Shown: piece after piece, positions 1 through 14,895 of the stretch
How positions within the stretch are numbered: position 1 is the stretch's first letter
Layout of the letters: each line of letters begins with the position of its first letter
UHGV virus genome: UHGV-0357162
Strand: one strand, 5' to 3'
Source of the DNA: a virus
Length of the DNA stretch: 40,644 bases
The notes under the pieces: generated by a model
The model's input: the letters and a program-made list of their open reading frames with translations, nothing else
Database searches by the model: none
What the model was told of the DNA's origin: nothing
Program-made: the position numbers and the translations under genes

Positions 1-575
1 ACCAACCCGGACTTGTTCCCCTTATAAAGTGGGAACGTGCCAAGGACCTTTCCGCCTAGTGTTAGTTGAAGTGTCGCCGCGTTGGTATTGTTCTGAACGG
101 GGAAAACGATAATCGGGGTTCGTAGCGTCCAGTCTGTACCTCCATTAACAAAAAACGTCGAGGGAAGTTCCAGCGTCAGTGCGTTTGCAGTGCCACCAGC
201 AACACCCGCAATATAATGACCGCTCTGAAGCTGCGCTATCTGTACGAAATAGTTTTCCGAACCACGCGTGGCAAAGTTAGCCACAACGTCATTAAGGGAC
301 CAACCTTTCGCGGTCGTTCCTTCCTGCCCACGAATGACTTTCAACACATCACCGCTTACCGATACCAGGTGACAAATCTCAAATGCAGACTCTTTATTAT
401 CGGTAAGCGTAATTTTTGCATAGACGCGTTGCCCGTTCGATTTATTTTCAAAATCGGCAGAAAGCAATTTTGCAAATTTAGCTCCCGTGCCCGGCATCAC
501 CGGAATATCAGTCTGAATCGTCGTGATATCGCCAGCCAGTGCTGAAACAACGTTATTGCCAAATCCAAGAATCAT
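1..575 (-). CDS. putative tail fibre / host-specificity protein, N-terminal part (partial; continues past window start)
   Basis: Minus-strand frame open from ATG at 573-575 to the window edge; N-terminus MILGFGNNVVSALAGDITTIQ; ATGA stop/start overlap with the upstream gene; sits after the J-like and I-position genes. Confidence 0.4.
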   Translation of the reverse strand, partial: MILGFGNNVVSALAGDITTIQTDIPVMPGTGAKFAKLLSADFENKSNGQRVYAKITLTDNKESAFEICHLVSVSGDVLKVIRGQEGTTAKGWSLNDVVANFATRGSENYFVQIAQLQSGHYIAGVAGGTANALTLELPSTFFVNGGTDWTLRTPIIVFPVQNNTNAATLQLTLGGKVLGTFPLYKGNKSGL

Positions 576-1198
576 TTTTGAATCACCGTTGTTGCATAGG
601 AATAAATAAAAGGGAGTTTTACATATTTCTGGTCAATGGCATCTTTAAGAAAATAGCCTATGCCATCGCCATACTCTGGTATCTGAATAGAAAAAACACT
701 GTCCGATACAGTCACACTCACATCAAAAGTATGCTGCAATGGCGGGTCTATTCCGTTTTTCCCATGAATGAACCGTGCCACACGGCGCTTTAACCAGTCA
801 ATGCAGAAATGCGAACCGTCAGCCTTATAAAAATTCCAAGTTAATATTCGCTTGAAATAATCATCCGGAACATACGATGCCTGCCCCGGAACATAATTCC
901 GCATTGCCGCATAAGGGATTGTATTGTATTCAATGGTATCGTATGCGCCGCGTGCAATAGCCTCCTCGGAAACCTGTAGTAAAGGCCTTTCAACGCCATA
1001 AATCCCGAGTGCAATCCAGTCCAGCAACTGCCCGGTTATTGATTCCGATGTCCAGCATGGCAATGCCAGATTGTTGAGTGAGTCGAGGTATTCCTGAGCA
1101 ATTTCATTGTATGCATCAAAGAACGCAACAACATTCGGATCATCTCTGTACTGCACAAATGGATAAGCAGGGAGAATTTTCTCAGTCAGATATTGCAT
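572..1198 (-). CDS. tail/baseplate protein in gpI position (hypothetical)
   Basis: Track ORF 572..1306; likely start at MQYLTEKIL (1198), overlapping the stop of the J-like gene; position between J-like gene and fibre. Confidence 0.4.
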   Translation of the reverse strand: MQYLTEKILPAYPFVQYRDDPNVVAFFDAYNEIAQEYLDSLNNLALPCWTSESITGQLLDWIALGIYGVERPLLQVSEEAIARGAYDTIEYNTIPYAAMRNYVPGQASYVPDDYFKRILTWNFYKADGSHFCIDWLKRRVARFIHGKNGIDPPLQHTFDVSVTVSDSVFSIQIPEYGDGIGYFLKDAIDQKYVKLPFIYSYATTVIQK

Positions 1199-2408
1199 GC
1201 TTGTTGACCTGAACCTGTGATGCCACCGTTGAAAAATAGGAATAGGTATCGCCATAAACCAGGCTTGTGTCTTTCGCCGGAAGAACAATATGGCCGTTAA
1301 TACCAATGCTCACACTGATTGTTGAGATCAACGTCGCATCAACCAGCAACCTGACGGAACTGGTAAAAATATCCTGGATACGCAGAAGATTTATCGGGTG
1401 TCCGACTTCAATTGAATTGATGTAATCAGCAACGTTTTGCTGCACAGCCATAGCAATACCCGCCGGATCAACATAATCATCAGACACCGTGTTCCAGGTG
1501 ATTAGCACCATGACGTTTTGTGATGACGGGATAACGAACGGCACCTGATAAACGTCCGGCGAAACGGTTATTGAAACCGTGCGTTTTTCCACTGCCGCAC
1601 CGGATGGATTGCTTACATCGTTGGTCAGTTTCGAAATATCCGGTACAGATTTGTAAATCGCATAAGCCACATCATACGGATCACCGCCACCAACAACCGC
1701 AACCCATTTCCCCAGCGACGACTGCCGAAAAGAAATCAGGTTTTCTCGCACACCGTTTACTGATTTGAGCATCGCTTTAAAGCAATCCGGTGTTCCCTGC
1801 ACACCAAACATGCCGGACTCCATGACTTCGGCGCGGTAAGATGCCCACGTTTGCGCCTCCTGACCTGGCATCCCTGCGGTAAGGTTCGTGCATTTTACAG
1901 GCTGGTCTTTTGGTACTGATGTAATGACCTGCGTCACGGTCCCTTCCGGTACAGCCCATGAGCCTGACGTTGTGGCCACACAGTAAACTGGCTCAGTCTG
2001 CCCGCTTTCCGGTATCACAGTATCGCGGGAAACCGCATACTGGTAGTTACCGTCACCAACCACAAATCCTTTAGGGATACCAAACCCCGGCAACGCCTCA
2101 AACACCACGTATACCGCCGTATTTGTACTTAATCCCTTCTGTGCTCCATATATGTTTCCGAGTTGCATCAGTAACGGAATATTCGCGCCGTATGGGCTTA
2201 CAGAGTTAATAAGGTCCACCCGCGCCTGGTCTATTAATGCCAGCGCCCCTACTGCCGTGCTGGCAAGGTCTGTAATAAGTCCTGCCGGAAGGTTGGCTGT
2301 ATATCCAGGTACTTTTTCAGCAACTCTGGTGATAAGATTCGCGAGCAAATCATTGGGTGGCGTAGGCTGCGCACCCGCACTGGTCATAGTAATTGGTATT
2401 TCTGACAT
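1182..2408 (-). CDS. baseplate J-like protein
   Basis: 408 aa; position and composition resemble the baseplate J family; compare in-window Mu gp47-like protein at 37690..38769. Confidence 0.55.
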   Translation of the reverse strand: MSEIPITMTSAGAQPTPPNDLLANLITRVAEKVPGYTANLPAGLITDLASTAVGALALIDQARVDLINSVSPYGANIPLLMQLGNIYGAQKGLSTNTAVYVVFEALPGFGIPKGFVVGDGNYQYAVSRDTVIPESGQTEPVYCVATTSGSWAVPEGTVTQVITSVPKDQPVKCTNLTAGMPGQEAQTWASYRAEVMESGMFGVQGTPDCFKAMLKSVNGVRENLISFRQSSLGKWVAVVGGGDPYDVAYAIYKSVPDISKLTNDVSNPSGAAVEKRTVSITVSPDVYQVPFVIPSSQNVMVLITWNTVSDDYVDPAGIAMAVQQNVADYINSIEVGHPINLLRIQDIFTSSVRLLVDATLISTISVSIGINGHIVLPAKDTSLVYGDTYSYFSTVASQVQVNKHAISD

Positions 2409-2422
2409 ATATCCCCTATATA

Positions 2423-2442
2423 AAAACCGCCGAAGCGGTTTT
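2423..2442 (-). terminator. rho-independent terminator downstream of the DUF1311-like moron
   Basis: Hairpin AAAACCGC-cgaa-GCGGTTTT; on the minus strand the stem is followed by TTTTTATAT; lies between the moron stop (2451) and the J-like start (2408). Confidence 0.5.
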
Positions 2443-2450
2443 AAGTTAAC

Positions 2451-3197
2451 TTATTTTGCCTGTTTCATTTTTTCCACCCTCTCAAGCATTCTTTTTACAT
2501 TTGATGGAGGATAGTTAAATTCATCGCCGTCTCCAAAAGAAATTTTTATAGGCTTCATTTTCATAACCAACTCTTTCAGAACTGCTTTACCAATTTCAGT
2601 TTTTGGCACTATAAAACCATTTCCATACAAGCATGATTTATAAGTTTTATAATATTCACCATTAATCAAAATTGGTGGATATTCTAATGGGCCATCAATT
2701 TGCACTGAATTATCGCAAAATCCATTACCTTTAGATTTTGAAGCAATAAAAATAGCTATTGTTCCATCATCGCCATACATCAGGAATCTATTTTTACTAA
2801 CACCTTCCAATGGAGGTAATATTATCAGTGCACCATCAATATACCATTCAGCGTAATTCTCTGATTCATTGATTATGTTCTCATTAATTTCATTTAAAGA
2901 TGAATATTCCCTGAATGCATTAGAATACCATTGTCGAACACATGATTCTGTTTTGCACTTCTCTCTTTCATTCCACAAGTCTGAAACAATTTTTCTAAAA
3001 GCTTTCTTATCAGTGCTCTCTAACTTTACTTTTTGATATAAAGAATTTAATTTATCATCAAGTTCAGATAATTCACTGTTGTTGCAAATTAACTTTTCAG
3101 AATATGATTTAGCTTTCGAGCAATCAAAAGATACTGCATTCGCAGTTCCTATTTGTAATAAAAAGGTAAACACTACAAATAATTTTAACTTAGACAT
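2451..3197 (-). CDS. secreted DUF1311/LprI-like protein (moron)
   Basis: Signal peptide MSKLKLFVVFTFLLQIGTANA; Cys-spaced motif FDCSKAKSYSEKLICNNSELSELDDKLNSLYQKV ... WYSNAFREY typical of the DUF1311 (lysozyme inhibitor LprI N-terminal) fold; GGAG RBS; markedly AT-rich relative to neighbours. Confidence 0.55.
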   Translation of the reverse strand: MSKLKLFVVFTFLLQIGTANAVSFDCSKAKSYSEKLICNNSELSELDDKLNSLYQKVKLESTDKKAFRKIVSDLWNEREKCKTESCVRQWYSNAFREYSSLNEINENIINESENYAEWYIDGALIILPPLEGVSKNRFLMYGDDGTIAIFIASKSKGNGFCDNSVQIDGPLEYPPILINGEYYKTYKSCLYGNGFIVPKTEIGKAVLKELVMKMKPIKISFGDGDEFNYPPSNVKRMLERVEKMKQAK

Positions 3198-3534
3198 CCT
3201 TAATCTCCTTATAAAACAGGAGAACAAATTTTACCCATTCTTAATGTCTGTTCAAGTTCATACTTTACAACCGCGCCCAGTTGAGTATGATTGGACGCAT
3301 GAGGCGTCGAAACCTCCCCCAAAAGCTGATTACCCAGCACCCTACAATGTGTTGGTTTTTTTATGCCTTTTTTTTGTGATGGCAATATGTGCGATCACAA
3401 CCCCGATCAATGTCGGGAGGGCGACGAATACAACACCCGAAAGGGGAATAAGTCCGCGGTATCTTTTGGGCCGTTTCGAACCTCCCGGCGCCACTACGTT
3501 AGTGGCAATTCGAAAAAAGCCAAAAGAGGTTACT

Positions 3535-4095
3535 ATGACCACCCAACTCATCACCGTGTTCAACGGAACCATTTCGAACGAAACCATCCTTCTATGCAAC
3601 GCTCGCGATCTGCATGCCTTTCTCGAAGTAGGTAAACGCTTTGCCACTTGGATTACCGAACGAATCAGCGAGTATGAATTCGTAGAAAATCAGGACTTTT
3701 TGATTATTTCCCAAAATCGGGAAAAAATCGGTAGAGGCAGACCAGCCAAAGACTACCATCTCACCCTGGACACCGCCAAAGAGCTGGCTATGGTCGAACG
3801 CAACGAAAAAGGACGCCAGATCCGCCGATACTTCATCGAGTGCGAGAAGAAGCTGCGCGAAGATACCACCAGCACACAATCCCCTCTGAATGTTGACATC
3901 ATCATGCGCGTCAGAAACGGCTCGGTTACCCACATTGAGCACCACAAATCAGGCTCAGTTATAACCACAGAATGGGCAATTCACTTACTACGCAAAAGTG
4001 GATGGATTGTCATGCCACGCGATGAACTTCTTAACACGCCACTGGCCCAATTGATACCCGAAAACTTGCCTCAAACCGGAACCTGCGTCCGGTAA
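3535..4095 (+). CDS. phage anti-repressor, AntA N-terminal domain plus KilA-C-like C-terminal domain
   Basis: Start MTTQLITVFNG with RBS AAAGAGG; motifs ATWITERISEYEFVENQDF (AntA-like) and DYHLTLDTAKELAMVERNEKGRQIRRYFIECEKK (KilAC-like). Opposite strand to the surrounding tail genes; the long track ORF 3079..4095 is an upstream extension. Confidence 0.7.
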   Translation: MTTQLITVFNGTISNETILLCNARDLHAFLEVGKRFATWITERISEYEFVENQDFLIISQNREKIGRGRPAKDYHLTLDTAKELAMVERNEKGRQIRRYFIECEKKLREDTTSTQSPLNVDIIMRVRNGSVTHIEHHKSGSVITTEWAIHLLRKSGWIVMPRDELLNTPLAQLIPENLPQTGTCVR

Positions 4096-4418
4096 CTGGT
4101 TCCGTTAAAAAACACAACATCGATGTTATAGGTGGGGTTCTCTGCCCCATCTACTTTTGAAATTGCCAGCGATGCAAAATACCCGGCATACTGTTGCTGA
4201 ACCATGTTCACATAGTAGTCCGGGTAAATCTGCTGCACGATGCACTGCTGCGCTGGAATGCCGTAATTCGCGTAAAACGGCGACTCCCCCAACCCCAGCT
4301 TTAACGTCTGAATGAGCGTCGTCAGCCAGCCGTAGGAGAAATCACCGTTGGCGTCTGACTCTACCGCCACCCATTTTTTGTTGCCGTTCGCGTCGGTGAC
4401 GCGGCCCCATGTTCTCAT
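4071..4418 (-). CDS. hypothetical tail-module protein (gpW position)
   Basis: Track ORF 4071..4451; likely start MRTWGRV at 4418 with GAGGG RBS; no recognisable gp25/W motif, so function unassigned. Confidence 0.4.
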   Translation of the reverse strand: MRTWGRVTDANGNKKWVAVESDANGDFSYGWLTTLIQTLKLGLGESPFYANYGIPAQQCIVQQIYPDYYVNMVQQQYAGYFASLAISKVDGAENPTYNIDVVFFNGTSYRTQVPV

Positions 4419-4425
4419 CGTGCCC

Positions 4426-4572
4426 TCACCACCATCGGATCTGGCCAACAAAATACCCAGACGCCAGAATCAGAAAGACCAACCAGATAAGTAAAAACTT
4501 CCAATTGGGAAATTTCTCGCCCATAACTCGAATCTCAACTAGTAATTTATAAACAATGAAAAGAAACTTCAT
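4426..4572 (-). CDS. small hydrophobic peptide, paralog A (48 aa from ATG 4572, or 32 aa from ATG 4524)
   Basis: MKFLFIVYKLLVEIRVMGEKFPNWKFLLIWLVFLILASGYFVGQIRWW; AAGGGA RBS before 4572; paralogous to 4691..4789. Confidence 0.4.
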   Translation of the reverse strand: MKFLFIVYKLLVEIRVMGEKFPNWKFLLIWLVFLILASGYFVGQIRWW

Positions 4573-4690
4573 ACAAATCCCTTTGTAACAATTACTTATA
4601 CCAAGTCATTCTATGCTTGAGTTCACGTAGCAAATCATCCATGAAGTAATTTGTTGTTTTTTCATTGCTATATGTAAAGTTATGTAAAAA

Positions 4691-4789
4691 TTACCGCCAC
4701 CGGATCGCCTGAATCAAAGCGGATAGTCCAAATAAGAAAAACACACGCCATATCAACAGGAATTTCCAGTTGGGTAATCTTTCGCCCAT
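4691..4789 (-). CDS. small hydrophobic peptide, paralog B (32 aa)
   Basis: MGERLPNWKFLLIWRVFFLFGLSALIQAIRWR; AAGGAG RBS 9 nt upstream; shares MGE(K/R)xPNWKFLLIW with paralog A. Confidence 0.4.
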   Translation of the reverse strand: MGERLPNWKFLLIWRVFFLFGLSALIQAIRWR

Positions 4790-4806
4790 TTCTCGTAACT
4801 CCTTTA

Positions 4807-4971
4807 TCAGTTTTTCAGGTAAATCAATGTACCCGCCACTAATGCAGTACAAATGATCCAGGCAACAGGCGTAAGTACGTGACGAATCCCTCGGCATACC
4901 GCGATTATCCTCGCAGCCTTATCTGCTCCTTGCGGAGTTGTCTCAGCCTTAAGAATCAGTTCGCTATCCAT
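4807..4971 (-). CDS. small membrane protein (54 aa)
   Basis: MDSELILKAETTPQGADKAARIIAVCRGIRHVLTPVAWIICTALVAGTLIYLKN; polar N-terminus and one predicted TM segment; below the ORF-track length cutoff; start overlaps the end of the upstream mini-ORF. Confidence 0.35.
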   Translation of the reverse strand: MDSELILKAETTPQGADKAARIIAVCRGIRHVLTPVAWIICTALVAGTLIYLKN

Positions 4972-5056
4972 TTAGAACCTTTATGATCTCTGCGATTCCC
5001 GGAAGAGATTTAGCAACAGCAAACCCTCCGATAACTATAAGAACTGCATAAAACAT
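4964..5056 (-). CDS. small hydrophobic peptide (30 aa)
   Basis: MFYAVLIVIGGFAVAKSLPGIAEIIKVLNG; first gene after the terminator at 5191..5224. Confidence 0.25.
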   Translation of the reverse strand: MFYAVLIVIGGFAVAKSLPGIAEIIKVLNG

Positions 5057-5190
5057 TCTTCTCAGAACCGGACTTCTTTCGAGCAATTTTAGAGCTTCCA
5101 CAATCCAGTCTCCTCCGCTAAAATTAATCACGGAAGACCTCCAAACATACGTAATTATCCCTTGCCTTATTCAAGGTCAGAAACAGAAAA

Positions 5191-5224
5191 CCCCGACTGG
5201 GCCAACAGTCGGGGTTTTCGTTTT
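5191..5224 (-). terminator. rho-independent terminator downstream of the spike-like gene
   Basis: Stem CCCCGACTG / CAGTCGGGG with 6-nt loop, A-run on one side and TTTTCGTTTT on the other (bidirectional architecture). Confidence 0.55.
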
Positions 5225-5256
5225 ATGGGTAGTATTTAAAGTGAAATGAACCGGTA

Positions 5257-5970
5257 TTAACCCGGATTTGGTTTCTTCGACGTGATCGTACTGCCACCGC
5301 TTTGAACACCAGTCACATCGTGACTGTGGCTGCTGGCGCTCACGCCGTTGATAACTGCATCTTTCTCGACCTTAAGAGGACCAATCAGCGAAGCGGTTGT
5401 ATCCTTCATCTGGGCTTTGTCCTGGACGATCGGTCCGTTGAGGTGAATTTGACCGTTCATGAAGATATCTTCGGCCTCGAGGTAAACAGCTTTCGACTTT
5501 AGCCTGATTTCTTCCGGTGCCACCGTTACCGAGCTACTGCCGTCCTCTGTTTTGATGATCGCGCCATCCGGACCGTACAAAACGATTTTTTGCGGATCTT
5601 CGTCGGACCAGTCCTTGTTTGCCAGTGGCACGAAAAACAGGGGAGTGAGCGACATCGAGTAAGAGAGCGTCGCCATACCGGTTCCCAATCCGGACACACC
5701 GCGCAGGGATACATCAGCGGCAATTGTTACTCCTCGATCACCCGGCTGTATCGGGTAACGGATATACGGGAATGTGGCGACAGGGATTGTTATCTGCGGA
5801 AAGTTGATCCCCTCTGGCAACATATCAAACTGAACGGTCACTATCTGCCCACTGACATCGACAACATGGCAGGGCAATTCACGGCCTTTAAGCTCGGCTT
5901 GCTGGTTGCCAGAACTGGTCATCATCTCCGACAGCGTTCGGAGAAACGGTAATTTTTGAGCGTTTGACAT
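5257..5970 (-). CDS. baseplate central spike protein (gpV-like)
   Basis: 237 aa; C-terminus INGVSASSHSHDVTGVQSGGSTITSKKP resembles the His-rich apex of gpV/gp5-type spikes; ATGA overlap with the upstream gene. Confidence 0.55.
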   Translation of the reverse strand: MSNAQKLPFLRTLSEMMTSSGNQQAELKGRELPCHVVDVSGQIVTVQFDMLPEGINFPQITIPVATFPYIRYPIQPGDRGVTIAADVSLRGVSGLGTGMATLSYSMSLTPLFFVPLANKDWSDEDPQKIVLYGPDGAIIKTEDGSSSVTVAPEEIRLKSKAVYLEAEDIFMNGQIHLNGPIVQDKAQMKDTTASLIGPLKVEKDAVINGVSASSHSHDVTGVQSGGSTITSKKPNPG

Positions 5971-6965
5971 TACACCCTCGCCCAGTTCTCAGCATATGCC
6001 TCAAATACCGTCACCCAGGCATCGCCATCAGCTGTCAGATACGAACCAATGTGTCTGACCGATTTCACAAGAAATTTCCCGGTGAACGTGGTCGAATTTT
6101 TTGCGATAACGCTGGGTGCCGTTGTATTAGCCATCACAATCGACGCAGCGCCAGAATATAGCCCCTCCGGCAGTTTAACCACATCACCACATCTGATATC
6201 GCCTCTCATAGGACATTTGAAACTGACGGTAAACGGCGCTATCCATGTCGGCTGCCCGACCAGTTCATGGGCATGAATTGTTTTTGGCTCCCCCCACTTT
6301 GCTGACGCGTTATCGTAAATTCGTATTCTGTCGGAAAGAATACTGATGGCAATCCCGCTGTATTTCTCATCGCGCATCATTGCAATTGAAGCACTACGGA
6401 GGACCATAGCCAGCGAACCAATATCTTCGTAGGTTCCATTCCACGGTTCCGGCAAAACGAGGCTGTCGCTGACAGTACAATCGATCAACTTATTCGGAAA
6501 TGCCTTTTGCAACGCACGGAAGATTACATCACCAACCTTTTCCCCTTTAAGCCCCTCCCCCTCGATAGAGAACGGTTTACCATCATCTGTTTTGCGTACG
6601 GTTGGATTTATTACCAGGTTTAAGGTCTGGTTCGTGCCGATCCAGTTGGCATAGGCCAGATAAATTTCGCCATAAATAACCTCACCCTGTTGCTGTGGAT
6701 TTGCCAAAGGCAATCCCTCAACAAAGCCCGCTTTCATACGGACCAGACACCCCTGCAAACTCACGCTTTGCTTCAGCATGTCGATAGGCAAACCGTATAT
6801 TGTGAGCATCGTTCCTGAATTCACTACATCAAGACCCGCTACCTCTGTGGGGTAGTGATCAATTCTGGGCGGAGTTCGTGCAGCCTGGTAGAACCTGCAA
6901 GCCTTGTGTGGCGCGGGGTATGGTGATTTAGTGTGATTCTGGGCGGATTTGTGAGAAATGACCAA
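5970..6965 (-). CDS. baseplate hub-like protein, possibly 5'-truncated at the Mu-like prophage junction
   Basis: Track ORF starts at a TTG; the first ~28 codons (MVISHKSAQNHTKSPYPAPHKACRFY) look like translated non-coding DNA and overlap repeats 6863..6946; confident coding from about residue 30 (PRIDHYPTEVAGLDVV) or from M at 6809. Confidence 0.4.
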   Translation of the reverse strand: MVISHKSAQNHTKSPYPAPHKACRFYQAARTPPRIDHYPTEVAGLDVVNSGTMLTIYGLPIDMLKQSVSLQGCLVRMKAGFVEGLPLANPQQQGEVIYGEIYLAYANWIGTNQTLNLVINPTVRKTDDGKPFSIEGEGLKGEKVGDVIFRALQKAFPNKLIDCTVSDSLVLPEPWNGTYEDIGSLAMVLRSASIAMMRDEKYSGIAISILSDRIRIYDNASAKWGEPKTIHAHELVGQPTWIAPFTVSFKCPMRGDIRCGDVVKLPEGLYSGAASIVMANTTAPSVIAKNSTTFTGKFLVKSVRHIGSYLTADGDAWVTVFEAYAENWARV

Positions 6966-6996
6966 AAACGCTTTTTTTTGCGCTTTTTTCTGGGCG
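6863..6996 (+). repeat. three direct copies of a TTCTGGGCG(G) core with similar flanks; candidate transposase-binding end sites (attL-like) of the Mu-like prophage
   Basis: Copies at about 6863..6872, 6937..6946 and 6988..6996, the first two with GTGAT...TTCTGGGCGGAxTTxGTG context; located just outside the repressor gene where Mu L1-L3 sites would be. Confidence 0.3.
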
Positions 6997-7158
6997 CTTT
7001 TGATCTGGTTCTGCTACAAACTTAACGGGTTTTAAATGCTTTTAAAAAAGTGTTTTATCCTTACCCGTTTTCCTCAATTTGTTCTCATCTGTTGTGTTCG
7101 GTTTTGTTGTGGTTATTGCTGATTAGCTAACAGCACACGCCCCGCCAAAACGAGGCGC

Positions 7159-7806
7159 TTATGCTGATTTCTTGTTTACAGGCTTAGTTTCTTGCTCCGG
7201 TGTGACGGGAACGCGATCACCTGGTGTTCCAGCACAGAAAATGGCTTTGGCGCGGCGCAAAATCTCTTTGTCATTTTCCTCATCGCCAGCTAATGCCATG
7301 CAAACAGCGTCTTTAAGCGATTGCCTGATGTTCAGGCTTTGAATGGCCTTCCTTTGCTCCTCAAGTTCGCTATCGGCTTGCTTAGTTTGCCTGGTGGGTT
7401 GCTGTAGGCGTTCCAAGATTCCTTTAATGCCCATATCGCATATTGCACTTATCAGTTGTTCCTTATCTTCTGTGGACGCTCTTTTCAATAACTCGTTAAC
7501 TAGCTCGTTTGTAATATCGGGAGAAGGCTGCGCTGTTTGATTTGATAGAGAACCTTCTTTGGCGGTGGGTTCCTCACCATAAGCGAGCCAATTTAAGCTC
7601 ACTTGTTCTTTATCTGAGATAAGACAAGCTATTTTAAAAGAAGGCTCTGTTCCTTTATGAATGTAGTTGTTTAAGGTTGAAGGGGGGATTCCCCAATCAC
7701 TCGCAGCAGTTCTGACACTACGGTTACCTATCAGCTTTACTAAACGCTCTCTGAAACTTTCTTTTCCCTGGTCGACAAAAGAAAAAGCATCATCATTTCT
7801 AGTCAT
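7159..7806 (-). CDS. prophage repressor (Mu c position), HTH DNA-binding protein
   Basis: 215 aa, transcribed divergently from the ner-like gene; N-terminal helix-turn-helix-like region SVRTAASDWGIPPSTLNNYIHKG. Confidence 0.55.
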   Translation of the reverse strand: MTRNDDAFSFVDQGKESFRERLVKLIGNRSVRTAASDWGIPPSTLNNYIHKGTEPSFKIACLISDKEQVSLNWLAYGEEPTAKEGSLSNQTAQPSPDITNELVNELLKRASTEDKEQLISAICDMGIKGILERLQQPTRQTKQADSELEEQRKAIQSLNIRQSLKDAVCMALAGDEENDKEILRRAKAIFCAGTPGDRVPVTPEQETKPVNKKSA

Positions 7807-7939
7807 TTTTTCTTTCCTCTATAACTGATTGATTTTAATTGTAAAAACCATATAAAGACCAAAATCAAAAAGAAAATACAAAGAAAGAGCTATTTTTGCT
7901 TTACATGGGCTACATATGGATCAATACTTGTATCCGAAG

Positions 7940-7961
7940 GGATAACACGGCGGTGTTATCC
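7940..7961. promoter_or_regulatory. operator palindrome GGATAACAC-ggcg-GTGTTATCC, with additional GGATAAC half-sites at 7931..7935 and 7966..7972
   Basis: Perfect 9-4-9 inverted repeat in the repressor / ner-like intergenic region, immediately upstream of the ner-like start. Confidence 0.5.
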
Positions 7962-7988
7962 GCACGGATAACTTTTAAGGGTAACCTA

Positions 7989-8225
7989 ATGATGGTTAGA
8001 AATGAAGTAATGAACAAAGACTGGCACCGCGAGTACATCGTTGCCGCTGTGCACACCAAAGGTTTTACATTGCGTGAACTTTCTGAACGCGCTGGTCTAA
8101 AAAAAGACTCTTTAAAAAATGCACTGTATCGCTCATGCCCTAAATATGAACGCATCATAGCCGATGCTATTGGTGTGGAACCTGCGGAGATCTGGCCAAG
8201 CCGGTATGCCAGTAAGGCGGCGTAA
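7989..8225 (+). CDS. ner: Ner-like DNA-binding protein
   Basis: About 78 aa starting MMVRNEVMNKDWHREYIVAAVHTKGFTLRELSERAGL; position directly upstream of the transposase with TAATG overlap; the track N-terminal extension covers the operator. Confidence 0.7.
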   Translation: MMVRNEVMNKDWHREYIVAAVHTKGFTLRELSERAGLKKDSLKNALYRSCPKYERIIADAIGVEPAEIWPSRYASKAA

Positions 8226-10267
8226 TGTTTTATTCAGCCAATGAGCTGGCCGGTCTTCCTGGTTTGCCCGGTACAGTTCAGGGGGTGCGCTGGACGCTCA
8301 ATCGGATCACAGAGACGCACCCAGAATGGAAGCGCAAGCGCGAAGGCACCAAAGCATTCGAGTATCACATCGACTGCCTGCCCGCTGAAGCGCAGAAAGT
8401 TTTACGTAAGCGCCTGACTCATCAGGTCCTGGAAGATGCACAACTGCCCGCCGTAGTTGAGCAGAAAGCAGTTAAAAACGTCGCCGTTCGCGATGAACTG
8501 GAGGTGATGGTCAAATGCCCGGAGCTGGCATTACGCGAAGTCCAGTCACTGACCGACAAGCAAAAGGCCATCGCTGATGCGCGGATATTGCTGGCTACTG
8601 AAGTGCATAAGCTGCGCGAGTATGCCGGAATGACCAGGAAGGCCGCTTTAAAGCACATCGTTGATGGTGTGCGCATGGGGGCGTTACCTGACCGCATTAT
8701 CGAAGCAGCGAATACTGCAAATGCACGTCAGGGAAAGCGAACCGGTGTCAGCACCGGCAGCCTGGATAGCTGGTACTCCAGCTGGGTGATGGCGCGCGGT
8801 GATGCCAATCAGTTACTGGCGTTACTGGCTCCCGGTCATCATAAGGGAACACCGTGGGAGCAGGTCTGGTGGTTGAGCGATTTCTTTATGTTCTATCGCT
8901 CATGGAAGCGCCCGACTGTTGAATATGCGTATCGTGAGTTTTCAGCCTGGTGGCATGAAAAACACGCGAATGATGCGGGAATGCTGGCGGCACTGCCTTC
9001 AGTTCACGCAGTAAGACGGGTGTTAAGCAGCGTCCCGGTGATTGTTAAAGAGCGTTTCCGCTCCACCGGTTCAGCCTGGCGTTCGCTCAATCCCTTTGTG
9101 CGGCGCGACTGGACATCATTACCGGTTAATGCGGTATGGGTCGGGGATGGTCACTGTATGAAAATGACCGCGTTTAACCCCCTGACCGGCAATATTTTCC
9201 GGCCAGAAGTGACGCTGGTTATGGATGCGGGGCAACGCTTTGTTGTGGGCTGGTCACTGTCCCTGTCGGAGAACGTGATAGCCGTTGCTGATGCGTTACG
9301 TTACGGCATGGCGCAGCACGGGATACCGCTGATTTATTACTCCGATAACGGGGGCGGTGAAAAAAACCGGGTGCTTGATGCCGATATTACCGGGATTCTG
9401 CCCCGGCTGGGTGTGGAACATCACACGGGGATACCAGGTAACCCGCAGGGGCGCGGGGTGATTGAACGGGCAAACAAAGGAATACCCAAAGACGTGGCTC
9501 TGAGTTTCCAGACGTACTGCGCAAGGGATGCAGACAAGGAAACCGTAATGATGCAGCAACGGATTATGCAGTCAGCCATTAAGGCCACCCACAAAGGGAA
9601 AGAACTGACAAAACGGCAGGTTAAGGCGAGGGATGAAATCCCCACCTTTGAGCAACTGCTGGCAGCCATAGAGCTGGAGGTCAGACGCTATAACAACCGG
9701 CCACACAGCAGCCTACCCCGCAAAGAGGATGGCGAATATTACAGCCCGGCAGCGTATCGCCGGAAACTGATAAAAGAGCAGAATGTTGAAATTGATTTCC
9801 TGTCGCCGGAAGAACTGCATGAAATGTTCAGACCGGAAGTGACGCGCAAAACATTTCGCGGGGAAATTCAGTTATTCAACAATATTTATTACTCATATGA
9901 TCTGGCCGCAGAGCACGGGAATGAAGTCAGGGTCAGTTACGATATTCATGATGCAAACAGCGTCATTGTCCGGCGGGCTGATGGCTCTTATATCTGCGAT
10001 GCCATCTGGAACGGTAACAAGGTTGATGCCTTCGCTAAACCAGTTATCGAACAAAAACTGGAGAAACGCGTCAGGGGCCGCATTGCACGGGCTACGCAGA
10101 AAATCGAAGAGGCTAAACGCGAGCTTACCCCGGCTATTACGCAGAAGCCTGACTTTAATCTGGGATATGGACTGGAGCGCCCGGAGAAAAAGGAAAAAGA
10201 AGAACTTTATTTATTCGCATCTGAACGCGAGCGCAATTTAAAGAAAAACGGCACAAACAACCGTTAA
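8225..10267 (+). CDS. A: Mu A-type DDE transposase
   Basis: 680 aa; N-terminus ANELAGLPGLPGTVQGV resembles the MuA DNA-binding N-terminus; DDE-core-like VWVGDGHCMKM; followed by the MuB-like ATPase. Confidence 0.9.
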   Translation: MFYSANELAGLPGLPGTVQGVRWTLNRITETHPEWKRKREGTKAFEYHIDCLPAEAQKVLRKRLTHQVLEDAQLPAVVEQKAVKNVAVRDELEVMVKCPELALREVQSLTDKQKAIADARILLATEVHKLREYAGMTRKAALKHIVDGVRMGALPDRIIEAANTANARQGKRTGVSTGSLDSWYSSWVMARGDANQLLALLAPGHHKGTPWEQVWWLSDFFMFYRSWKRPTVEYAYREFSAWWHEKHANDAGMLAALPSVHAVRRVLSSVPVIVKERFRSTGSAWRSLNPFVRRDWTSLPVNAVWVGDGHCMKMTAFNPLTGNIFRPEVTLVMDAGQRFVVGWSLSLSENVIAVADALRYGMAQHGIPLIYYSDNGGGEKNRVLDADITGILPRLGVEHHTGIPGNPQGRGVIERANKGIPKDVALSFQTYCARDADKETVMMQQRIMQSAIKATHKGKELTKRQVKARDEIPTFEQLLAAIELEVRRYNNRPHSSLPRKEDGEYYSPAAYRRKLIKEQNVEIDFLSPEELHEMFRPEVTRKTFRGEIQLFNNIYYSYDLAAEHGNEVRVSYDIHDANSVIVRRADGSYICDAIWNGNKVDAFAKPVIEQKLEKRVRGRIARATQKIEEAKRELTPAITQKPDFNLGYGLERPEKKEKEELYLFASERERNLKKNGTNNR

Positions 10268-10285
10268 TTTAAAAGGTATTTAATT

Positions 10286-11179
10286 ATGAGTTTAATTACG
10301 CAATTAAATGACGTAATGGCCCGTCGCGGCTATACGCAGACCCACGTCGCCCGTGCTATTGGTCGTAGCAGCGCCGTTATCAACCAGTATTTACAGGGTA
10401 AATATCAGGGCGATATGGCTGATATTGAAGAACGCATTTCTGCCTTTGTGACCCGTGAGCGGGAAAAGGAAAACAGCCGCCGTATTAAAGCGAAATTTGT
10501 TGCCACCGGTATGGCTGCCAAAGGACTGGAAGTGCTGGCCTATGCTCACCTGGAATGTGAAATCTGCGTACTGTATGGCGCGGCAGGTCTTGGCAAAACA
10601 ATGATTCTGCGTGAATACGCCGCCAGAAACCGGGATGCGGTCCTGATTGAAGCTGACCCGGGCTATACAGCCAGAACACTGCTTGAGGAGCTGTGCCGCC
10701 AGCTGGGGGTAAAAGTTCGCGGCAATATCCACGAACTGATTGATGCATGTGTGCGAGAACTGCGTGATTCCGGTCGCCTGCTGATGGTGGACGAGGCTGA
10801 ACTGCTCCCCTATCGCGCACTGGAGGTTCTGCGCCGTCTGCATGACAAAGCGGGTATCGGGATTGTCCTGGCGGGTATGCCACGCCTTCTGATTAACCTC
10901 AAGGGACGTCGCGGTGAGTTCGCCCAGTTATACAGCCGTGTGGCGCTGGCGCTTAACCTGGGCGATACGCTGGCGCAGGAAGATTTTAACCAGATAGCCA
11001 CCGGGCTGATGCCGGAAGCAGCAGAACCGGAAATCAGCGAGGCGCTTTATACACGTTCGCTGGGTAATGCCCGCCGCCTGTTCAAACTGGCGCGTGGTGT
11101 GTACCGGATTTGTGATATCAGCGATGCACCGGTCAGTGTGCAGGCCATTGATAAATTCGCAGAAATGTTAATTCACTGA
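10286..11179 (+). CDS. B: Mu B-type AAA+ ATPase target DNA activator
   Basis: 297 aa; Walker A LYGAAGLGKT and Walker B LLMVDEAE; N-terminal HTH; immediately follows the transposase. Confidence 0.85.
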   Translation: MSLITQLNDVMARRGYTQTHVARAIGRSSAVINQYLQGKYQGDMADIEERISAFVTREREKENSRRIKAKFVATGMAAKGLEVLAYAHLECEICVLYGAAGLGKTMILREYAARNRDAVLIEADPGYTARTLLEELCRQLGVKVRGNIHELIDACVRELRDSGRLLMVDEAELLPYRALEVLRRLHDKAGIGIVLAGMPRLLINLKGRRGEFAQLYSRVALALNLGDTLAQEDFNQIATGLMPEAAEPEISEALYTRSLGNARRLFKLARGVYRICDISDAPVSVQAIDKFAEMLIH

Positions 11180-11418
11180 TGGAGAACAAGACGATGGACA
11201 AGCAGACCATTAACGCCGTCCGTTCCCGTGCCCGTGTGGCCATCCACACCACTGGTGGTCGTGTAACGGGACAACATCACCGTTTACCTGTGGTTTATGC
11301 CTGCCCGCCCGTGGGTGGTCCTGTATGGCCGGTAACGGAAATCATCCAGAGATTCAGCGGCCTGCGCCGCGTGGTGAAAACATCCTGTATCGACGGCTGC
11401 ACCGTCGTATGGCAATGA
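11179..11418 (+). CDS. hypothetical semi-early protein
   Basis: 79 aa ORF; ATG overlaps the MuB stop (TGATGG). Confidence 0.4.
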   Translation: MENKTMDKQTINAVRSRARVAIHTTGGRVTGQHHRLPVVYACPPVGGPVWPVTEIIQRFSGLRRVVKTSCIDGCTVVWQ

Positions 11419-11430
11419 GAGGAAATCAGA

Positions 11431-11646
11431 ATGGCGGTCAAGTTAGAAGTAATTATCTACACCGATGAAAACGGTACGCTTCGTGTCAGGAGCATGGGGG
11501 CTGTTGATAAAAAAGGATTTACGGATGAAGAGGTCGGGGTAAGACAACGGTTATGGGAGGTAATGAATCAAACGCTTAATAAAGAATTTAACGGCGTTGA
11601 TTTATTTTCTGTTGGCGTGGAACCCTGCGCACATAACACACATTAA
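11431..11646 (+). CDS. hypothetical semi-early protein
   Basis: 71 aa ORF with GAGG-type RBS. Confidence 0.4.
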   Translation: MAVKLEVIIYTDENGTLRVRSMGAVDKKGFTDEEVGVRQRLWEVMNQTLNKEFNGVDLFSVGVEPCAHNTH

Positions 11647-11675
11647 TCTGTAAATATCACTGAGGTAATTTAATT

Positions 11676-12320
11676 ATGACGACTGAAAATAAAGTTAAGC
11701 AATACACGAAAACTCAAGCGCCTGAAGGTTACTGGGTGGATGCCCGTGGCGTAATGACACCTGAAAGCCTTATCAAAGATATTGACCGCGACCGCGAGCA
11801 GCTGGTCGGTGAGATTGTGGAACTGGTGATTGCTGCCTCCGCCTCACTGCGTGAACTGAAACTACGTGCCTTTGGTGATATCCAGGCATTTATTGACCTG
11901 TCGGCGGAGAAATACGGCGCAGTGAAAGGTGGCAAAAAAGGCAATATCACGCTTTACAGCTTTGACGGGCGTTACAAGATTCAGCGCGCCATGCAGGACC
12001 GTATCGCGTTTGATGAACGCATTCAGACCGCGAAGTCGCTGATTGATGACTGTCTGGCTGACTGGACGGAAGGTGCGCGCCCTGAAATTAAAGCCATCAT
12101 TAGCGAGGCATTCAGCACGGACAAGGAAGGCAACATTAACACCGGGCGCGTTCTGGCCCTGCGTCGTCTGGAAATTGAGGACGAACGCTGGAATAACGCT
12201 ATGACGCTGATTGGTGAAGCCGTCCAGGTGATTGGCAGCAAGAGCTATATTCGTGTGTATGAGCGCGTCGGTGATTCTGATGAATACCGCGCAATCCCGC
12301 TTGATATTGCAGGGGTTTAA
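11676..12320 (+). CDS. Mu-like semi-early protein (DUF3164-like)
   Basis: 214 aa; size and position typical of DUF3164 proteins of Mu-like prophages; family assignment by recollection only. Confidence 0.45.
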   Translation: MTTENKVKQYTKTQAPEGYWVDARGVMTPESLIKDIDRDREQLVGEIVELVIAASASLRELKLRAFGDIQAFIDLSAEKYGAVKGGKKGNITLYSFDGRYKIQRAMQDRIAFDERIQTAKSLIDDCLADWTEGARPEIKAIISEAFSTDKEGNINTGRVLALRRLEIEDERWNNAMTLIGEAVQVIGSKSYIRVYERVGDSDEYRAIPLDIAGV

Positions 12321-12321
12321 C

Positions 12322-12555
12322 ATGCATCAGGATATCAAAGAGTACAGGGCCGGAAATAGTTGCGCGGCGTATTCGCTGGGCGCGTCCAGAGCAGAACAAC
12401 GCGGCGATTATGACGAGGCAGAAAAACTGTGGCGCAAGGCAGCGCAAAGCCCGTGTAGCACCCTGCGCCGCATCTGGGCTGAACATCGTGCGGAGTTCTG
12501 CGCTAACGCTCACCTGAAGGGCTGGAGGCCACGCCATGAATGCGAAGAACTTTAA
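12322..12555 (+). CDS. hypothetical small helical protein
   Basis: 77 aa from ATG 12322 (MHQDIKEYRAGNS...GDYDEAEKLWRKAAQS); the longer track ORF 12232..12555 overlaps the previous gene. Confidence 0.4.
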   Translation: MHQDIKEYRAGNSCAAYSLGASRAEQRGDYDEAEKLWRKAAQSPCSTLRRIWAEHRAEFCANAHLKGWRPRHECEEL

Positions 12556-12727
12556 TAAGCAGTATCCGGTAGGGACTCGCTTCATGCACACTGCACATCC
12601 GGCGTTGCGTGGTGGTCGTGTGGTGAAAACCGTTTCACCTGCCAGAGATTTTAAATGTGGTTGTGTGGTTGAAATTAATGTCGAGCCTTATTTCGTTAAA
12701 GTCGAAACACTGAAAGCAGCGCATTAA
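12536..12727 (+). CDS. hypothetical protein
   Basis: 63 aa ORF overlapping the upstream stop. Confidence 0.35.
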   Translation: MNAKNFNKQYPVGTRFMHTAHPALRGGRVVKTVSPARDFKCGCVVEINVEPYFVKVETLKAAH

Positions 12728-12756
12728 TTTAATTCAATTTTAATTGTTATTTAAAA

Positions 12757-12790
12757 CAGGCGTAAACCCGCCAGGGCTGGCTTACGCCTG
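12757..12790 (-). terminator. stem-loop terminator for the antisense gene 12831..13091
   Basis: CAGGCGTAA ... TTACGCCTG outer stem with inner GCCAG/CTGGC stem; T-rich run follows on the minus strand. Confidence 0.45.
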
Positions 12791-12830
12791 AATCAAGAGG
12801 ATTTATATATGAGAGATAAAATCTGGGGCT

Positions 12831-13091
12831 TTATTTATCCTCCGAAGGGGTTTGCAACGGTGTCTGCATCATTATCTCAATCTGTTTTAAATGAGAGAGA
12901 ACGTGTGAAGAGGCCACTGTCTCACCAATATCAGAAAGTCGTTTTACAGCCTGCTGTAACTGGTAAGAAAGAATAGATAAATCGAGAGAGCCCTGGATTT
13001 GCAGGGCTCTGACGGTAGCCAGCCACACGTAATGTGATGCCAGAACTTTTTCATCGGTTGGTGTGAAATCAGGAGTTTCGTTTTTATTCAT
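12831..13091 (-). CDS. hypothetical small protein encoded antisense to the early operon (moron)
   Basis: 86 aa from MNKNETPDF with AAGAGG RBS; AT-rich flanks; divergent from 13177..13893. Confidence 0.45.
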   Translation of the reverse strand: MNKNETPDFTPTDEKVLASHYVWLATVRALQIQGSLDLSILSYQLQQAVKRLSDIGETVASSHVLSHLKQIEIMMQTPLQTPSEDK

Positions 13092-13176
13092 AAAACCTCT
13101 TATTACTTCAACTGAAAAAGAAAACATCACATTACTTAATTTTCTTGCATGAAAAAATGATCGAAAACAACAGGTT

Positions 13177-13893: not shown

Positions 13894-13895
13894 CG

Positions 13896-14123
13896 ATGGC
13901 TTTTAAACTTCTCAGTGTTACCGAAGCAATATACCAGCCTCCCGGAGAACGCCACGAATACAGGATGAATGACGGTAGCGCGGCGGTTGAGTTCCCTAAA
14001 TATCCGGGGGATTCCCGGTGGCGGTTCTATGACAGTGCGGGACGCCGGATTATTAAAAGAACCGTGCACAACGCCATGAAAGCCGCTGTAGAACGTCACA
14101 AAAGGAGGTTTAACTGCAAATGA
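13896..14123 (+). CDS. hypothetical protein
   Basis: 75 aa ORF in operon context. Confidence 0.35.
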   Translation: MAFKLLSVTEAIYQPPGERHEYRMNDGSAAVEFPKYPGDSRWRFYDSAGRRIIKRTVHNAMKAAVERHKRRFNCK

Positions 14124-14344
14124 ATATTGAATTTTATGACTACGGAGTCACCGCAAAAATTATTGTTACCTGCTGGTTCTGGGAGTTCCGCCGCTATTGC
14201 CGGGTTGTGGATGCGGCGCTGTTTGTGGCACCTGAAGTGCGCCATCAGAGTGGCGGTGGCCTTTTAATGAAAACCGTCATCACCGGTAAAACGGTTCCGA
14301 TGTTACGGGCGTTTAAAGTGGCAAAACAGGAGGCGGCGCAGTGA
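14120..14344 (+). CDS. hypothetical protein
   Basis: 74 aa ORF overlapping the upstream stop. Confidence 0.35.
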   Translation: MNIEFYDYGVTAKIIVTCWFWEFRRYCRVVDAALFVAPEVRHQSGGGLLMKTVITGKTVPMLRAFKVAKQEAAQ

Positions 14345-14529: not shown

Positions 14530-14533
14530 AACG

Positions 14534-14883: not shown

Positions 14884-14895
14884 AGGAGGTACCAG

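What the first reader, a model, noticed from the sequence alone, without database searches (positions are those of the whole stretch)
1..6965. Second myovirus-type baseplate and fibre module transcribed away from the Mu-like prophage
Hub-like, spike-like, W-position, J-like, I-position and fibre genes occur in the conserved V-W-J-I-H order on the minus strand, so the window holds two independent contractile-tail baseplate modules. The left one contains an internal terminator after the spike gene, inserted morons and a possibly truncated hub gene, which is consistent with a prophage remnant or a tailocin-like locus rather than an intact phage.
Basis: inference. Interest (0 to 1): 0.45.

Follow-up and report, generated by a model that had tools for sequence, protein, structure and literature searches.

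The report
Rac-type prophage baseplate cut by Mu
The left 6.8 kb is the ordinary baseplate-and-fibre end of a known Rac-family E. coli prophage, and its hub gene looks truncated because a Mu-like phage transposed into it, so it is not a tailocin or a separate remnant.

Summary
Window 1-6845 carries, on the minus strand, hub (3' part), spike, a gp25/W-like gene, Baseplate_J, a wedge-1/gpI-like gene and the start of a fibre gene. Accessory cassettes and a strong hairpin after the spike gene interrupt them. The window also holds a second, unrelated Mu-type baseplate module (35424-39346, plus strand).

The left module is 99.985% identical to the tail end of a full-length Rac-family prophage of E. 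coli STEC711 and about 95% identical to phage Rac-SA53. Both carry terminase and portal genes. Sheath, tape-measure and a capsid-position gene were checked only in STEC711.

Homology stops exactly at 6845, inside the hub gene. Base 6846 is the TG left end of a ~37.7 kb Mu-like prophage. On the source contig (ENA ERZ28665698 scaffold_208) the first 46 hub codons and the upstream tail genes resume beyond the Mu right end, 100% identical to STEC711, after a repeated ACCTC.

So this is one Rac-type prophage split by Mu-type transposition, not a tailocin or a deletion remnant. Sheath and head genes lie to the right, beyond the Mu insert, not to the left. This is ordinary biology and is already in the databases.

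The parts
1..575 (-). First 191 codons of the proximal tail-fibre gene (460 aa when complete). The gene runs off the left end of the window.
   Evidence: It equals L001 20001-20575 of the STEC711 'phage tail protein' WP_097452376.1. The full protein matches PHROG tail-fibre families, for example phrog_6859 at E 3.8e-117. On the source contig a Caudo_TAP gene, a 790-aa fibre gene and a DUF4376 gene follow it.
572..1198 (-). I-position gene, 208 aa: a baseplate wedge-1 / triplex-1 (gpI / Mu gp48-like) protein by predicted fold. It is an orphan at the sequence level.
1182..2408 (-). Baseplate J-like wedge gene, 408 aa.
   Evidence: Pfam PF04865 at E 4.5e-8, 33.1 bits, above the 21.1 cut-off. phrog_6 'baseplate wedge subunit' at E 8.9e-39.
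2451..3197 (-). Accessory cassette (moron): a secreted LprI-family-like protein, 248 aa, with an N-terminal signal peptide. A promoter-like site on the same strand lies at 3255-3228.
   Evidence: RefSeq names the identical STEC711 gene 'lysozyme inhibitor LprI family protein'; my Pfam scan did not reach that family at E <= 0.01. GC is 30.5% against about 49-52% for the neighbouring structural genes. Window 2409-3299 has no counterpart in Rac-SA53. Promoter-like site.
3412..3497 (+). Match to Rfam sRNA-Xcc1, lying in the leader of the antirepressor gene.
   Evidence: RF02221, 72.5 bits against a gathering score of 53, full-length model match.
3535..4095 (+). Accessory cassette: an AntA/AntB-type antirepressor gene, 186 aa. 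It converges on the W-position gene and overlaps its 3' end.
   Evidence: Pfam AntA at E 5.4e-28; PHROG anti-repressor families. Start coordinate taken from the RefSeq annotation of STEC711.
4071..4418 (-). W-position gene, 115 aa: probable gp25/gpW-like sheath-initiator wedge protein. The assignment rests on fold and position only.
4426..5131 (-). Block of small hydrophobic-peptide ORFs between the spike and W-like genes: 55 aa (4964-5131), 54 aa (4807-4971) and two paralogous 32-aa peptides (4691-4789 and 4426-4524).
   Evidence: Read directly from the sequence. phrog_6632 matches at E 5.3e-16. Window 4537-5159 is replaced by 34 bp in Rac-SA53. GC is 40.8%.
5186..5219 (-). Terminator-like hairpin (also terminator-like on the plus strand), 38 nt downstream of the spike stop codon.
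   Evidence: 14-bp stem with 8 GC pairs followed by a T-rich tail. MFE -26.8 kcal/mol, z -5.1, and 0 of 200 shuffles fold as well. An identical copy is present in STEC711.
5257..5970 (-). Central spike gene, 237 aa, of the gpV / phi92 gp138 type. It has a C-terminal HxH apex motif (SHSHD...GGSTITSKKPNPG).
   Evidence: phmmer against PDB: 3pqi and 21vq (phi92 gp138) at E 1.1-1.3e-5, with the apex aligned. TIGR01644 phage_P2_V at E 1.6e-5, below its cut-off. RefSeq calls it 'phage baseplate protein' and Rac-SA53 names it bppV.
5970..6845 (-). 3' part of the baseplate hub gene: 291 of its 335 codons.
   Evidence: phrog_196 'baseplate hub' at E 1.1e-36. Identical to STEC711 WP_096934523.1 from residue 45 onward. 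The 5' 46 codons lie at L004 15184-15324, beyond the Mu insert.
6841..6845 (.). Left copy of the target-site repeat ACCTC.
   Evidence: The same pentamer recurs at L004 15188-15192, at the right junction.
6846..40644 (+). Mu-like transposable prophage, from its TG left end to its fibre genes; the whole element is about 37.69 kb and continues past the window. Genes: repressor 7159-7806 (-), MuA-type transposase 8225-10267, MuB-like ATPase 10286-11179, sheath 29470-30891, and the baseplate genes gp44-like 35424-36635, gp45 36632-37165, gp46 37340-37690, gp47 37690-38769, gp48 38774-39346, with a fibre gene at 39346-40149.
   Evidence: Pfam families recorded for the called genes of L003 and L004. 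The left-end DNA occurs at many unrelated chromosomal sites in other E. coli genomes. The right end was located on L004.

Best explanation
Window 1-6845 is the distal part of the late tail operon of a Rac-family (Rac-SA53-type) myovirus prophage of E. coli. It holds the baseplate hub, spike, gp25-like, J and wedge-1 genes and the first fibre gene. This prophage normally sits between ttcA and uspF/ompN.

A Mu-like transposable phage inserted into codon 44-46 of the hub gene. Its left end starts at 6846, its repressor gene lies next to that end, and it is about 37.7 kb long. The insertion splits the Rac-type prophage in two. The baseplate and fibre genes seen in the window are now 37.7 kb away from their sheath, tube and tape-measure genes and, by inference from the uninterrupted copies, from their head genes and late promoter. 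The hub reading frame has lost its first 44 residues.

The Rac-type prophage is therefore expected to be unable to build tails. That step is an inference. The Mu-like prophage looks complete, with its own unrelated baseplate.

The LprI-like gene, the Ant gene with its sRNA-Xcc1-like leader, and the small-peptide block are strain-variable accessory cassettes lodged between the structural genes. The hairpin after the spike gene is a conserved feature of this prophage family. In a Q-antiterminated lambdoid late transcript it would be read through. That point rests on established knowledge of lambdoid late transcription and on the q gene annotated in Rac-SA53.
For: Identity of the left module:
- 6845 of 6845 bases align with one mismatch (at 2829) to STEC711 NZ_CP041416.1 2673693-2680537, and the region is about 95% identical to phage Rac-SA53.
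- In STEC711 the module is followed by uspF/ompN. It is preceded by tape-measure, sheath (phrog_205, E 1.3e-53), portal (PF06381), terminase, lysis and toxin genes.
- Rac-SA53 has intR/ttcA, recET and q.

The break:
- Every E. coli match to the left side stops at 6845.
- Matches to the right side start at 6846 in most genomes. They lie next to unrelated genes such as eutC, hyfB, ypdF, a TonB receptor gene and RHS.
- None of 5,426 complete genomes spans the junction.
- The left end reads TGTGGGGTAGTGATCAATTCTGGGCGG, with a second GTGATTCTGGGCGGA repeat.

The source contig:
- It was found through the truncated 279-aa hub product.
- The Mu right end ...GAAGTTAC(A) is followed by ACCTC. Then come 5,617 bases 100% identical to STEC711 from inside the hub gene through the sheath-like gene.
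- Two related Mu-like elements at other loci show the same 5-bp repeat geometry: AAAAG and AAATC.

Gene identities.
Against: - Head and packaging genes of the Rac-type prophage were seen only in the uninterrupted STEC711 copy and in Rac-SA53. The last 20.2 kb of the source contig could not be fetched.
- The target duplication is ambiguous: 5 bp if the element ends ...GTTAC, 4 bp if it ends ...GTTACA. BLAST end points in other genomes usually include that A.
- Loss of function of the split prophage is inferred, not measured.
- The contig is a metagenome assembly.
Confidence: 0.9

Rival explanations
1. One reading: the left module is a free-standing prophage remnant or an R-type tailocin locus that has lost its head genes.
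For: - The hub gene is truncated, and no head gene lies in the window next to the module.
- Accessory genes and a hairpin interrupt the operon.
- The Rac prophage of E. coli K-12 is a known cryptic remnant (own knowledge; its cryptic status is in the title of PMC5917428).
Against: - The truncation point coincides to the base with the Mu-like left end.
- The missing hub codons and the upstream tail genes are present, 100% identical to STEC711, beyond the Mu right end on the same contig.
- The uninterrupted copy, 99.985% identical, has sheath, portal, terminase and lysis genes.
- The same cassettes and hairpin occur in that full-length prophage.
Confidence: 0.05
2. The Rac/Mu junction is an artefact of metagenome assembly: two prophages from different cells were joined at a shared repeat.
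For: - The contig comes from a metagenome.
- The two prophages share fibre-cassette sequences of 84-91% identity that could mislead an assembler.
Against: - The junctions are not at the shared fibre sequences. They lie at the exact Mu termini, inside a unique hub gene, with the target pentamer repeated on both sides.
- A second contig in the collection carries the same truncated hub product.
Confidence: 0.03
3. The severed module is still in use. For example, read-through from the leftward Mu-like repressor gene could express the chimeric hub ORF and the spike gene, or the fibre genes could recombine with the Mu-like fibre cassette.
For: - The repressor gene (7159-7806) points towards the junction.
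- The chimeric ORF 5970-6965 is open from a TTG in Mu-end DNA.
- The fibre cassettes form inverted repeats of 84-91% identity.
Against: - There are no expression data.
- A weak terminator-like site lies at 6987-6964 on the minus strand.
- The gene caller chose an internal ATG, not the TTG.
- A hub lacking its N-terminal 44 residues is unlikely to assemble (inference).
Confidence: 0.02

Closest known systems
Escherichia phage Rac-SA53 (KU052037.1) and the Rac-type prophage of E. coli STEC711 (NZ_CP041416.1, about 2669381-2701084)
   Same: - Same genes in the same order: hub (rac56), bppV spike, rac59, J-like rac63, rac64 and the fibres.
- DNA is 95% identical to Rac-SA53 and 99.985% identical to STEC711.
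- The same hairpin follows the spike gene in STEC711.
   Different: - Here the hub gene is interrupted by a 37.7 kb Mu-like prophage.
- The cassette content between the spike and J genes differs from Rac-SA53. The LprI-like gene and the small-peptide block are absent there, and rac61/rac62 are present instead.
Phage Mu baseplate module gp44-gp45-gp46-gp47-gp48-fibre (and P2 V-W-J-I-H-G)
   Same: - Same functional order: hub, spike, gp25-like, J, wedge-1, fibre, tail-fibre assembly protein.
- The J protein belongs to the same Pfam family.
   Different: - There is no significant pairwise sequence similarity to the window's own Mu-type proteins; the best E is 0.047.
- The W- and I-position proteins hit neither PF07409/PF10076 nor GPW_gp25.
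- In P2 the hub gene D is not adjacent to V (own knowledge).
phi92 gp138 / P2 gpV central spikes
   Same: The C-terminal beta-helix and the apex with an HxH motif align: SHSHDVTGVQSGGSTITSKKPNPG against HTHTHPVRGVETGGSTVTSDKPNGG.
   Different: The match is weak (E about 1e-5) and below the TIGR01644 cut-off. Iron binding was not tested.
Simple myovirus and tailocin baseplates solved by cryo-EM (PhiTE, Bas63, phiCD508, diffocin TRI-1/TRI-2, XM1)
   Different: The similarity is at the fold level only (6-12% identity). The locus is a prophage with head genes in its intact relatives, not a tailocin.

Membership tests
Contractile-tail (myovirus-type) baseplate module | Baseplate hub protein (gp27 / gpD / Mu gp44 class) | tested here: met
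   phrog_196 'baseplate hub' at E 1.1e-36 for 5970-6965. There is no Pfam hit.
Contractile-tail (myovirus-type) baseplate module | Central spike with a gpV/gp138-type beta-helix and apex | tested here: met
   PDB 3pqi at E 1.3e-5 with the HxH apex aligned. TIGR01644 at E 1.6e-5, 24.6 bits, below the 46.75 cut-off.
Contractile-tail (myovirus-type) baseplate module | gp25 / gpW / TssE-like sheath-initiator protein | tested here: inconclusive
Contractile-tail (myovirus-type) baseplate module | Baseplate J (gp6/gpJ/gp47) wedge protein | tested here: met
   PF04865 at 33.1 bits, above the 21.1 cut-off; phrog_6 at E 8.9e-39.
Contractile-tail (myovirus-type) baseplate module | Second wedge protein (gp7 / gpI / gp48 / TRI-1 class) | tested here: met
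Contractile-tail (myovirus-type) baseplate module | Sheath and tube genes in the same operon | tested here: met
   On the source contig beyond the Mu insert, 445-aa and 147-aa genes are 100% identical in DNA to STEC711. The 445-aa protein matches phrog_205 'tail sheath' at E 1.3e-53. The tube assignment rests on position and size only.
R-type tailocin | No capsid, portal or terminase genes belong to the element | tested here: not met
   The uninterrupted copy in STEC711, 99.985% identical, has portal (PF06381, E 2.4e-14), terminase large and small subunits and a capsid-position gene directly upstream. Rac-SA53 likewise. This was not seen directly on the last 20 kb of the source contig.
Rac-family lambdoid prophage (Rac-SA53 type) | Near-identity to Rac-SA53 and residence at the ttcA - uspF/ompN locus | tested here: met
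   95.3% identity over the shared parts of Rac-SA53, whose record carries attP in ttcA. In STEC711 the module abuts uspF/ompN. The host flank itself lies outside the window.
Mu-type transposition event (the cause of the truncation) | Element with MuA/MuB genes, a terminal TG, a repressor gene at the left end, and copies at unrelated loci | tested here: met
   HTH_Tnp_Mu_1 plus Mu-transpos_C in the 680-aa product, and an AAA ATPase next to it. TG at 6846. The left end lies at many different loci in other genomes.
Mu-type transposition event (the cause of the truncation) | 5-bp target-site duplication | tested here: inconclusive
   ACCTC is present on both sides. Two related elements show AAAAG and AAATC. 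However, the first A may instead be the terminal A of a ...CA right end, which would leave a 4-bp repeat.

The most novel reading that the evidence does not exclude
The W-position (115 aa) and I-position (208 aa) proteins belong to sequence-orphan families with no Pfam model. The W-position family has only about 176 representative clusters. Both were found almost entirely in Enterobacterales, and together they may define a distinct, uncharacterised lineage of simple myovirus baseplates. Separately, the leftward repressor transcript of the Mu-like prophage might read into the severed hub and spike genes, producing a truncated hub that interferes with related superinfecting phages.
Probability: 0.05. 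Interest if true: 0.35.

Novelty: already known. Interest (0 to 1): 0.13.

Why it matters
It matters little beyond correct annotation.

- The 'truncated hub' and the apparent lack of head genes are side effects of one phage transposing into another. They are not signs of a tailocin.
- The case is a tidy example of a nested prophage. A Mu-like insertion probably grounds a toxin-carrying Rac-type prophage, since the STEC711 copy carries AB5 / pertussis-like toxin genes.
- Two baseplate proteins of this widespread prophage family can be recognised only by predicted structure.

Tried and rejected
- Junction search: an exact 33-mer spanning the junction found nothing in one-genome-per-species genome contigs.
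- Chimeric hub ORF: a look-up of the 331-aa chimeric ORF found nothing. The gene caller had used the internal ATG, and that 279-aa product did find the source contig.
- W-position protein, sequence and profile links all negative:
  - hhalign against the window's own Mu gp46;
  - a Pfam scan of 88 diverse family members gathered by a full HMM search of 1.8 billion representatives;
  - a profile search of PDB sequences.
- I-position protein, links also negative: hhalign against Mu gp48, PDB sequences, Pfam and NCBIfam.
- Hub and J proteins: no PDB sequence hits.
- Head genes on the source contig: I tried to reach them through the sheath protein.
- Literature: searches for Rac-SA53 found only passing mentions.
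- Rejected idea: the left module is a duplicated part of the Mu-like phage. There is no sequence similarity between the two modules and the Mu termini are well defined.

Full report
**What is in 1-6965**

The minus strand carries these ORFs:
- 5970-6965 (331 aa)
- 5257-5970 (237 aa)
- three small ORFs at 4691-5131
- 4071-4451 (RefSeq start gives 4071-4418, 115 aa)
- 2451-3227 (RefSeq start gives 2451-3197, 248 aa)
- 1182-2408 (408 aa)
- 572-1306 (RefSeq start gives 572-1198, 208 aa)
- an ORF that runs off the left end at 1-575

One plus-strand gene, 3535-4095, lies among them.

**Profile and structure evidence for each gene**

- Hub (5970-6965): PHROG 196 'baseplate hub', E 1.1e-36. It covers only profile positions 124-365 of 536.
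- J (1182-2408): Pfam Baseplate_J above its cut-off, and PHROG 6 at E 8.9e-39.
- Spike (5257-5970): no Pfam or PHROG hit. It matches the phi92 gp138 central spike in PDB at E about 1e-5. The C-terminal apex, including an HxH motif, is aligned. TIGR01644 phage_P2_V scores E 1.6e-5, below its cut-off.
- Fibre (1-575): the first 191 codons of a 460-aa protein that matches many PHROG tail-fibre families.

**The two genes identified only by position**

The W-position and I-position proteins had no sequence-level support:
- No Pfam, NCBIfam or PDB sequence hit.
- No hhalign link to the Mu-type gp46 and gp48 encoded in the same window.
- For the W-position family, none of 88 diverse members hits a gp25-type Pfam model. 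These members came from a full HMM search that returned 176 representative clusters.
- Profile searches of PDB sequences are empty.

I therefore built alignments and predicted structures.

**Where the module comes from**

- Window 1-6845 matches E. coli STEC711 (NZ_CP041416.1) with a single mismatch, at 2829. It matches Escherichia phage Rac-SA53 at about 95% over the shared parts.
- In STEC711 the module is the distal end of a long prophage. To its left come a tail-fibre assembly gene, a second fibre gene, a DUF4376 gene, and then host uspF and ompN.
- To its right (upstream for minus-strand genes) come an 88-aa and a 222-aa gene, a 691-aa tape-measure-like protein with a transglycosylase region, a 143-aa tube-position gene and a 445-aa sheath (phrog_205, E 1.3e-53).
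- Further right lie head-region genes, a portal (PF06381), both terminase subunits, holins, an endolysin and AB5 / ADP-ribosyltransferase toxin genes.
- Rac-SA53 has the same late genes plus intR, recET, a q antiterminator and an attP in ttcA.

This is a full-length Rac-family myovirus prophage, not a tailocin.

**Why the hub looks truncated**

- Every E. coli match to the left side ends at window 6845.
- A query across the junction splits exactly at 6845/6846, and none of 5,426 complete genomes spans it.
- The right half occurs next to eutC, hyfB, ypdF, a TonB-receptor gene, RHS, a phage capsid gene and others. That is the signature of a transposable phage.
- Base 6846 starts TGTGGGGTAGTGATCAATTCTGGGCGG, and a second GTGATTCTGGGCGGA repeat lies 70 bases in. 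A leftward repressor gene and rightward MuA- and MuB-type genes follow.
- The break lies inside the STEC711 hub gene (335 aa), 132 nt from its start.
- The window ORF 5970-6965 is a chimera. Its first 40 codons are Mu-end DNA and its last 291 residues are identical to the native hub.

**The other half**

- Looking up the 279-aa product from the internal ATG found the source contig: ENA ERZ28665698 scaffold_208, 75,020 bp, from a metagenome.
- A look-up of the last complete window gene fetched the same contig 10 kb past the window (L004).
- There the Mu-like element continues with a tail-fibre assembly gene, a 1040-aa fibre gene and a DUF4376 gene. It ends ...GCGAAGTTAC(A).
- Next comes ACCTC, the same five bases that precede 6846. 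Then 5,617 bases follow that are 100% identical to STEC711, from within the hub gene through the sheath-like gene.
- The 46-codon 5' hub fragment is called as an ORF.
- The element spans window 6846 to a window-equivalent position of about 44,533, which is 37.69 kb.
- Two related Mu-like prophages elsewhere (L007, L008) show the same geometry, with repeats AAATC and AAAAG.
- One point stays unresolved. BLAST end points in other genomes usually include the A after GTTAC. So either the element ends in CA and the repeat is 4 bp, or the element ends in ...TTAC and the repeat is 5 bp with A favoured at its first position.

**The second module**

The Mu-like prophage carries these genes:
- sheath 29470-30891
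- tape-measure 31818-34091
- DNA_circ_N protein 34091-35440
- gp44-like hub 35424-36635
- gp45 spike 36632-37165
- gp46 37340-37690
- Baseplate_J 37690-38769
- gp48 38774-39346
- fibre 39346-40149

BLASTP between the two modules gives nothing better than E 0.047.

**Cassettes and hairpin**

- The LprI-like gene has a signal peptide and 30.5% GC against about 50% for its neighbours. It has a promoter-like site upstream at 3255-3228.
- Window 2409-3299 has no counterpart in Rac-SA53, which carries rac61/rac62 there instead.
- The AntA antirepressor gene is on the opposite strand.
- Window 4537-5159, holding most of the small hydrophobic ORFs, is replaced by 34 bp in Rac-SA53.
- These features fit the comparative definition of morons.
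- The hairpin at 5186-5219 is strong (-26.8 kcal/mol, z -5.1) and identical in STEC711. It is therefore a normal feature of this prophage family, not evidence of decay.
- In a lambdoid late operon transcribed by Q-modified polymerase such a terminator would be read through. This is an inference from established lambdoid biology and the q gene of Rac-SA53.

**Mechanism and consequences**

Shown:
- One Rac-type prophage is split by a Mu-type insertion in its hub gene.
- The flanks are otherwise 100% or nearly 100% identical to an uninterrupted relative.

Inferred:
- The hub loses 44 N-terminal residues.
- The baseplate and fibre genes are separated from their late promoter by 37.7 kb of oppositely oriented DNA, so the Rac-type phage can no longer make tails.
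- Mu-type insertions do not excise precisely (own knowledge), so the defect should be permanent.

**Limits**

- Head genes were not seen directly on the source contig. Its last 20.2 kb could not be fetched.
- The contig is a metagenome assembly. However, both junctions lie at exact element termini in unique sequence, and a second contig carries the same truncated product.

**Verdict**

The 'remnant or tailocin' reading is not. The feature is ordinary and already present in public records, so interest is low.

Noticed in passing
window 3412-3497 (+): There is a full-length match to Rfam sRNA-Xcc1 (72.5 bits, gathering score 53). It lies in the leader directly upstream of the AntA antirepressor gene, after a promoter-like site at 3264-3291. 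Stx-phage matches cover 3301-3858 at about 78% identity, so the RNA and the 5' part of ant travel together. A preprint on APSE phages reports the same RNA family upstream of an ORF6N-domain gene. This suggests a cis-acting leader of Ant/ORF6N-type genes rather than a free sRNA.
   Followed up: partly
window 4426-5131 (-): Four small hydrophobic-peptide ORFs lie between the spike and W-like genes. They are 55 aa, 54 aa (start overlapping the previous stop) and two paralogous 32-aa peptides. One peptide is MGERLPNWKFLLIW...IRWR at 4691-4789. The other is MGEKFPNWKFLLIW...IRWW at 4426-4524, ending 8 nt before the W-like start. One matches phrog_6632 (unknown function). Most of the block is missing from Rac-SA53.
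   Followed up: no
window 39943-40462 and L004 11880-13043, compared with L001 16942-19399: The Mu-like and Rac-type prophages carry the same kind of host-range cassette: fibre, tail-fibre assembly protein, second fibre with phage_tail_N, and DUF4376. The cassettes share stretches of 84-91% DNA identity in inverted orientation about 40 kb apart. They are a possible substrate for inversion or fibre exchange between the two prophages. This Mu-like phage shows no sign of a Gin-type invertible segment before its right end.
   Followed up: partly
window 17496-18733 compared with L001 44881-46116: The lysis region of the Mu-like prophage (holins and endolysin) is about 69% identical in DNA to the lysis region of the Rac-type prophage of STEC711. 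This is further mosaic sharing between the two phage types.
   Followed up: no
window 6841-6849 and L004 15180-15192; L007 and L008 junctions: In three of three insertions examined, the 5-bp flanking repeat starts with A, directly after ...GTTAC (ACCTC, AAAAG, AAATC). Either the element ends in CA and makes 4-bp repeats, or it makes 5-bp repeats with a strong preference for A at the first position. Neither is the textbook Mu picture.
   Followed up: partly
phage record PP818812.1 (hit H2): 'Actinobacillus phage vB_Apl-pPE4' is 95.7% identical over about 5 kb to this E. coli Rac-type tail region. That is an unexpected host label for sequence otherwise found in Escherichia.
   Followed up: no
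hit H57 (NZ_CP082831.1, 2790654-2791210): In another E. coli genome the left end of a related Mu-like prophage abuts a 'phage major capsid protein' gene. That is a second case of this phage type landing inside another prophage.
   Followed up: no
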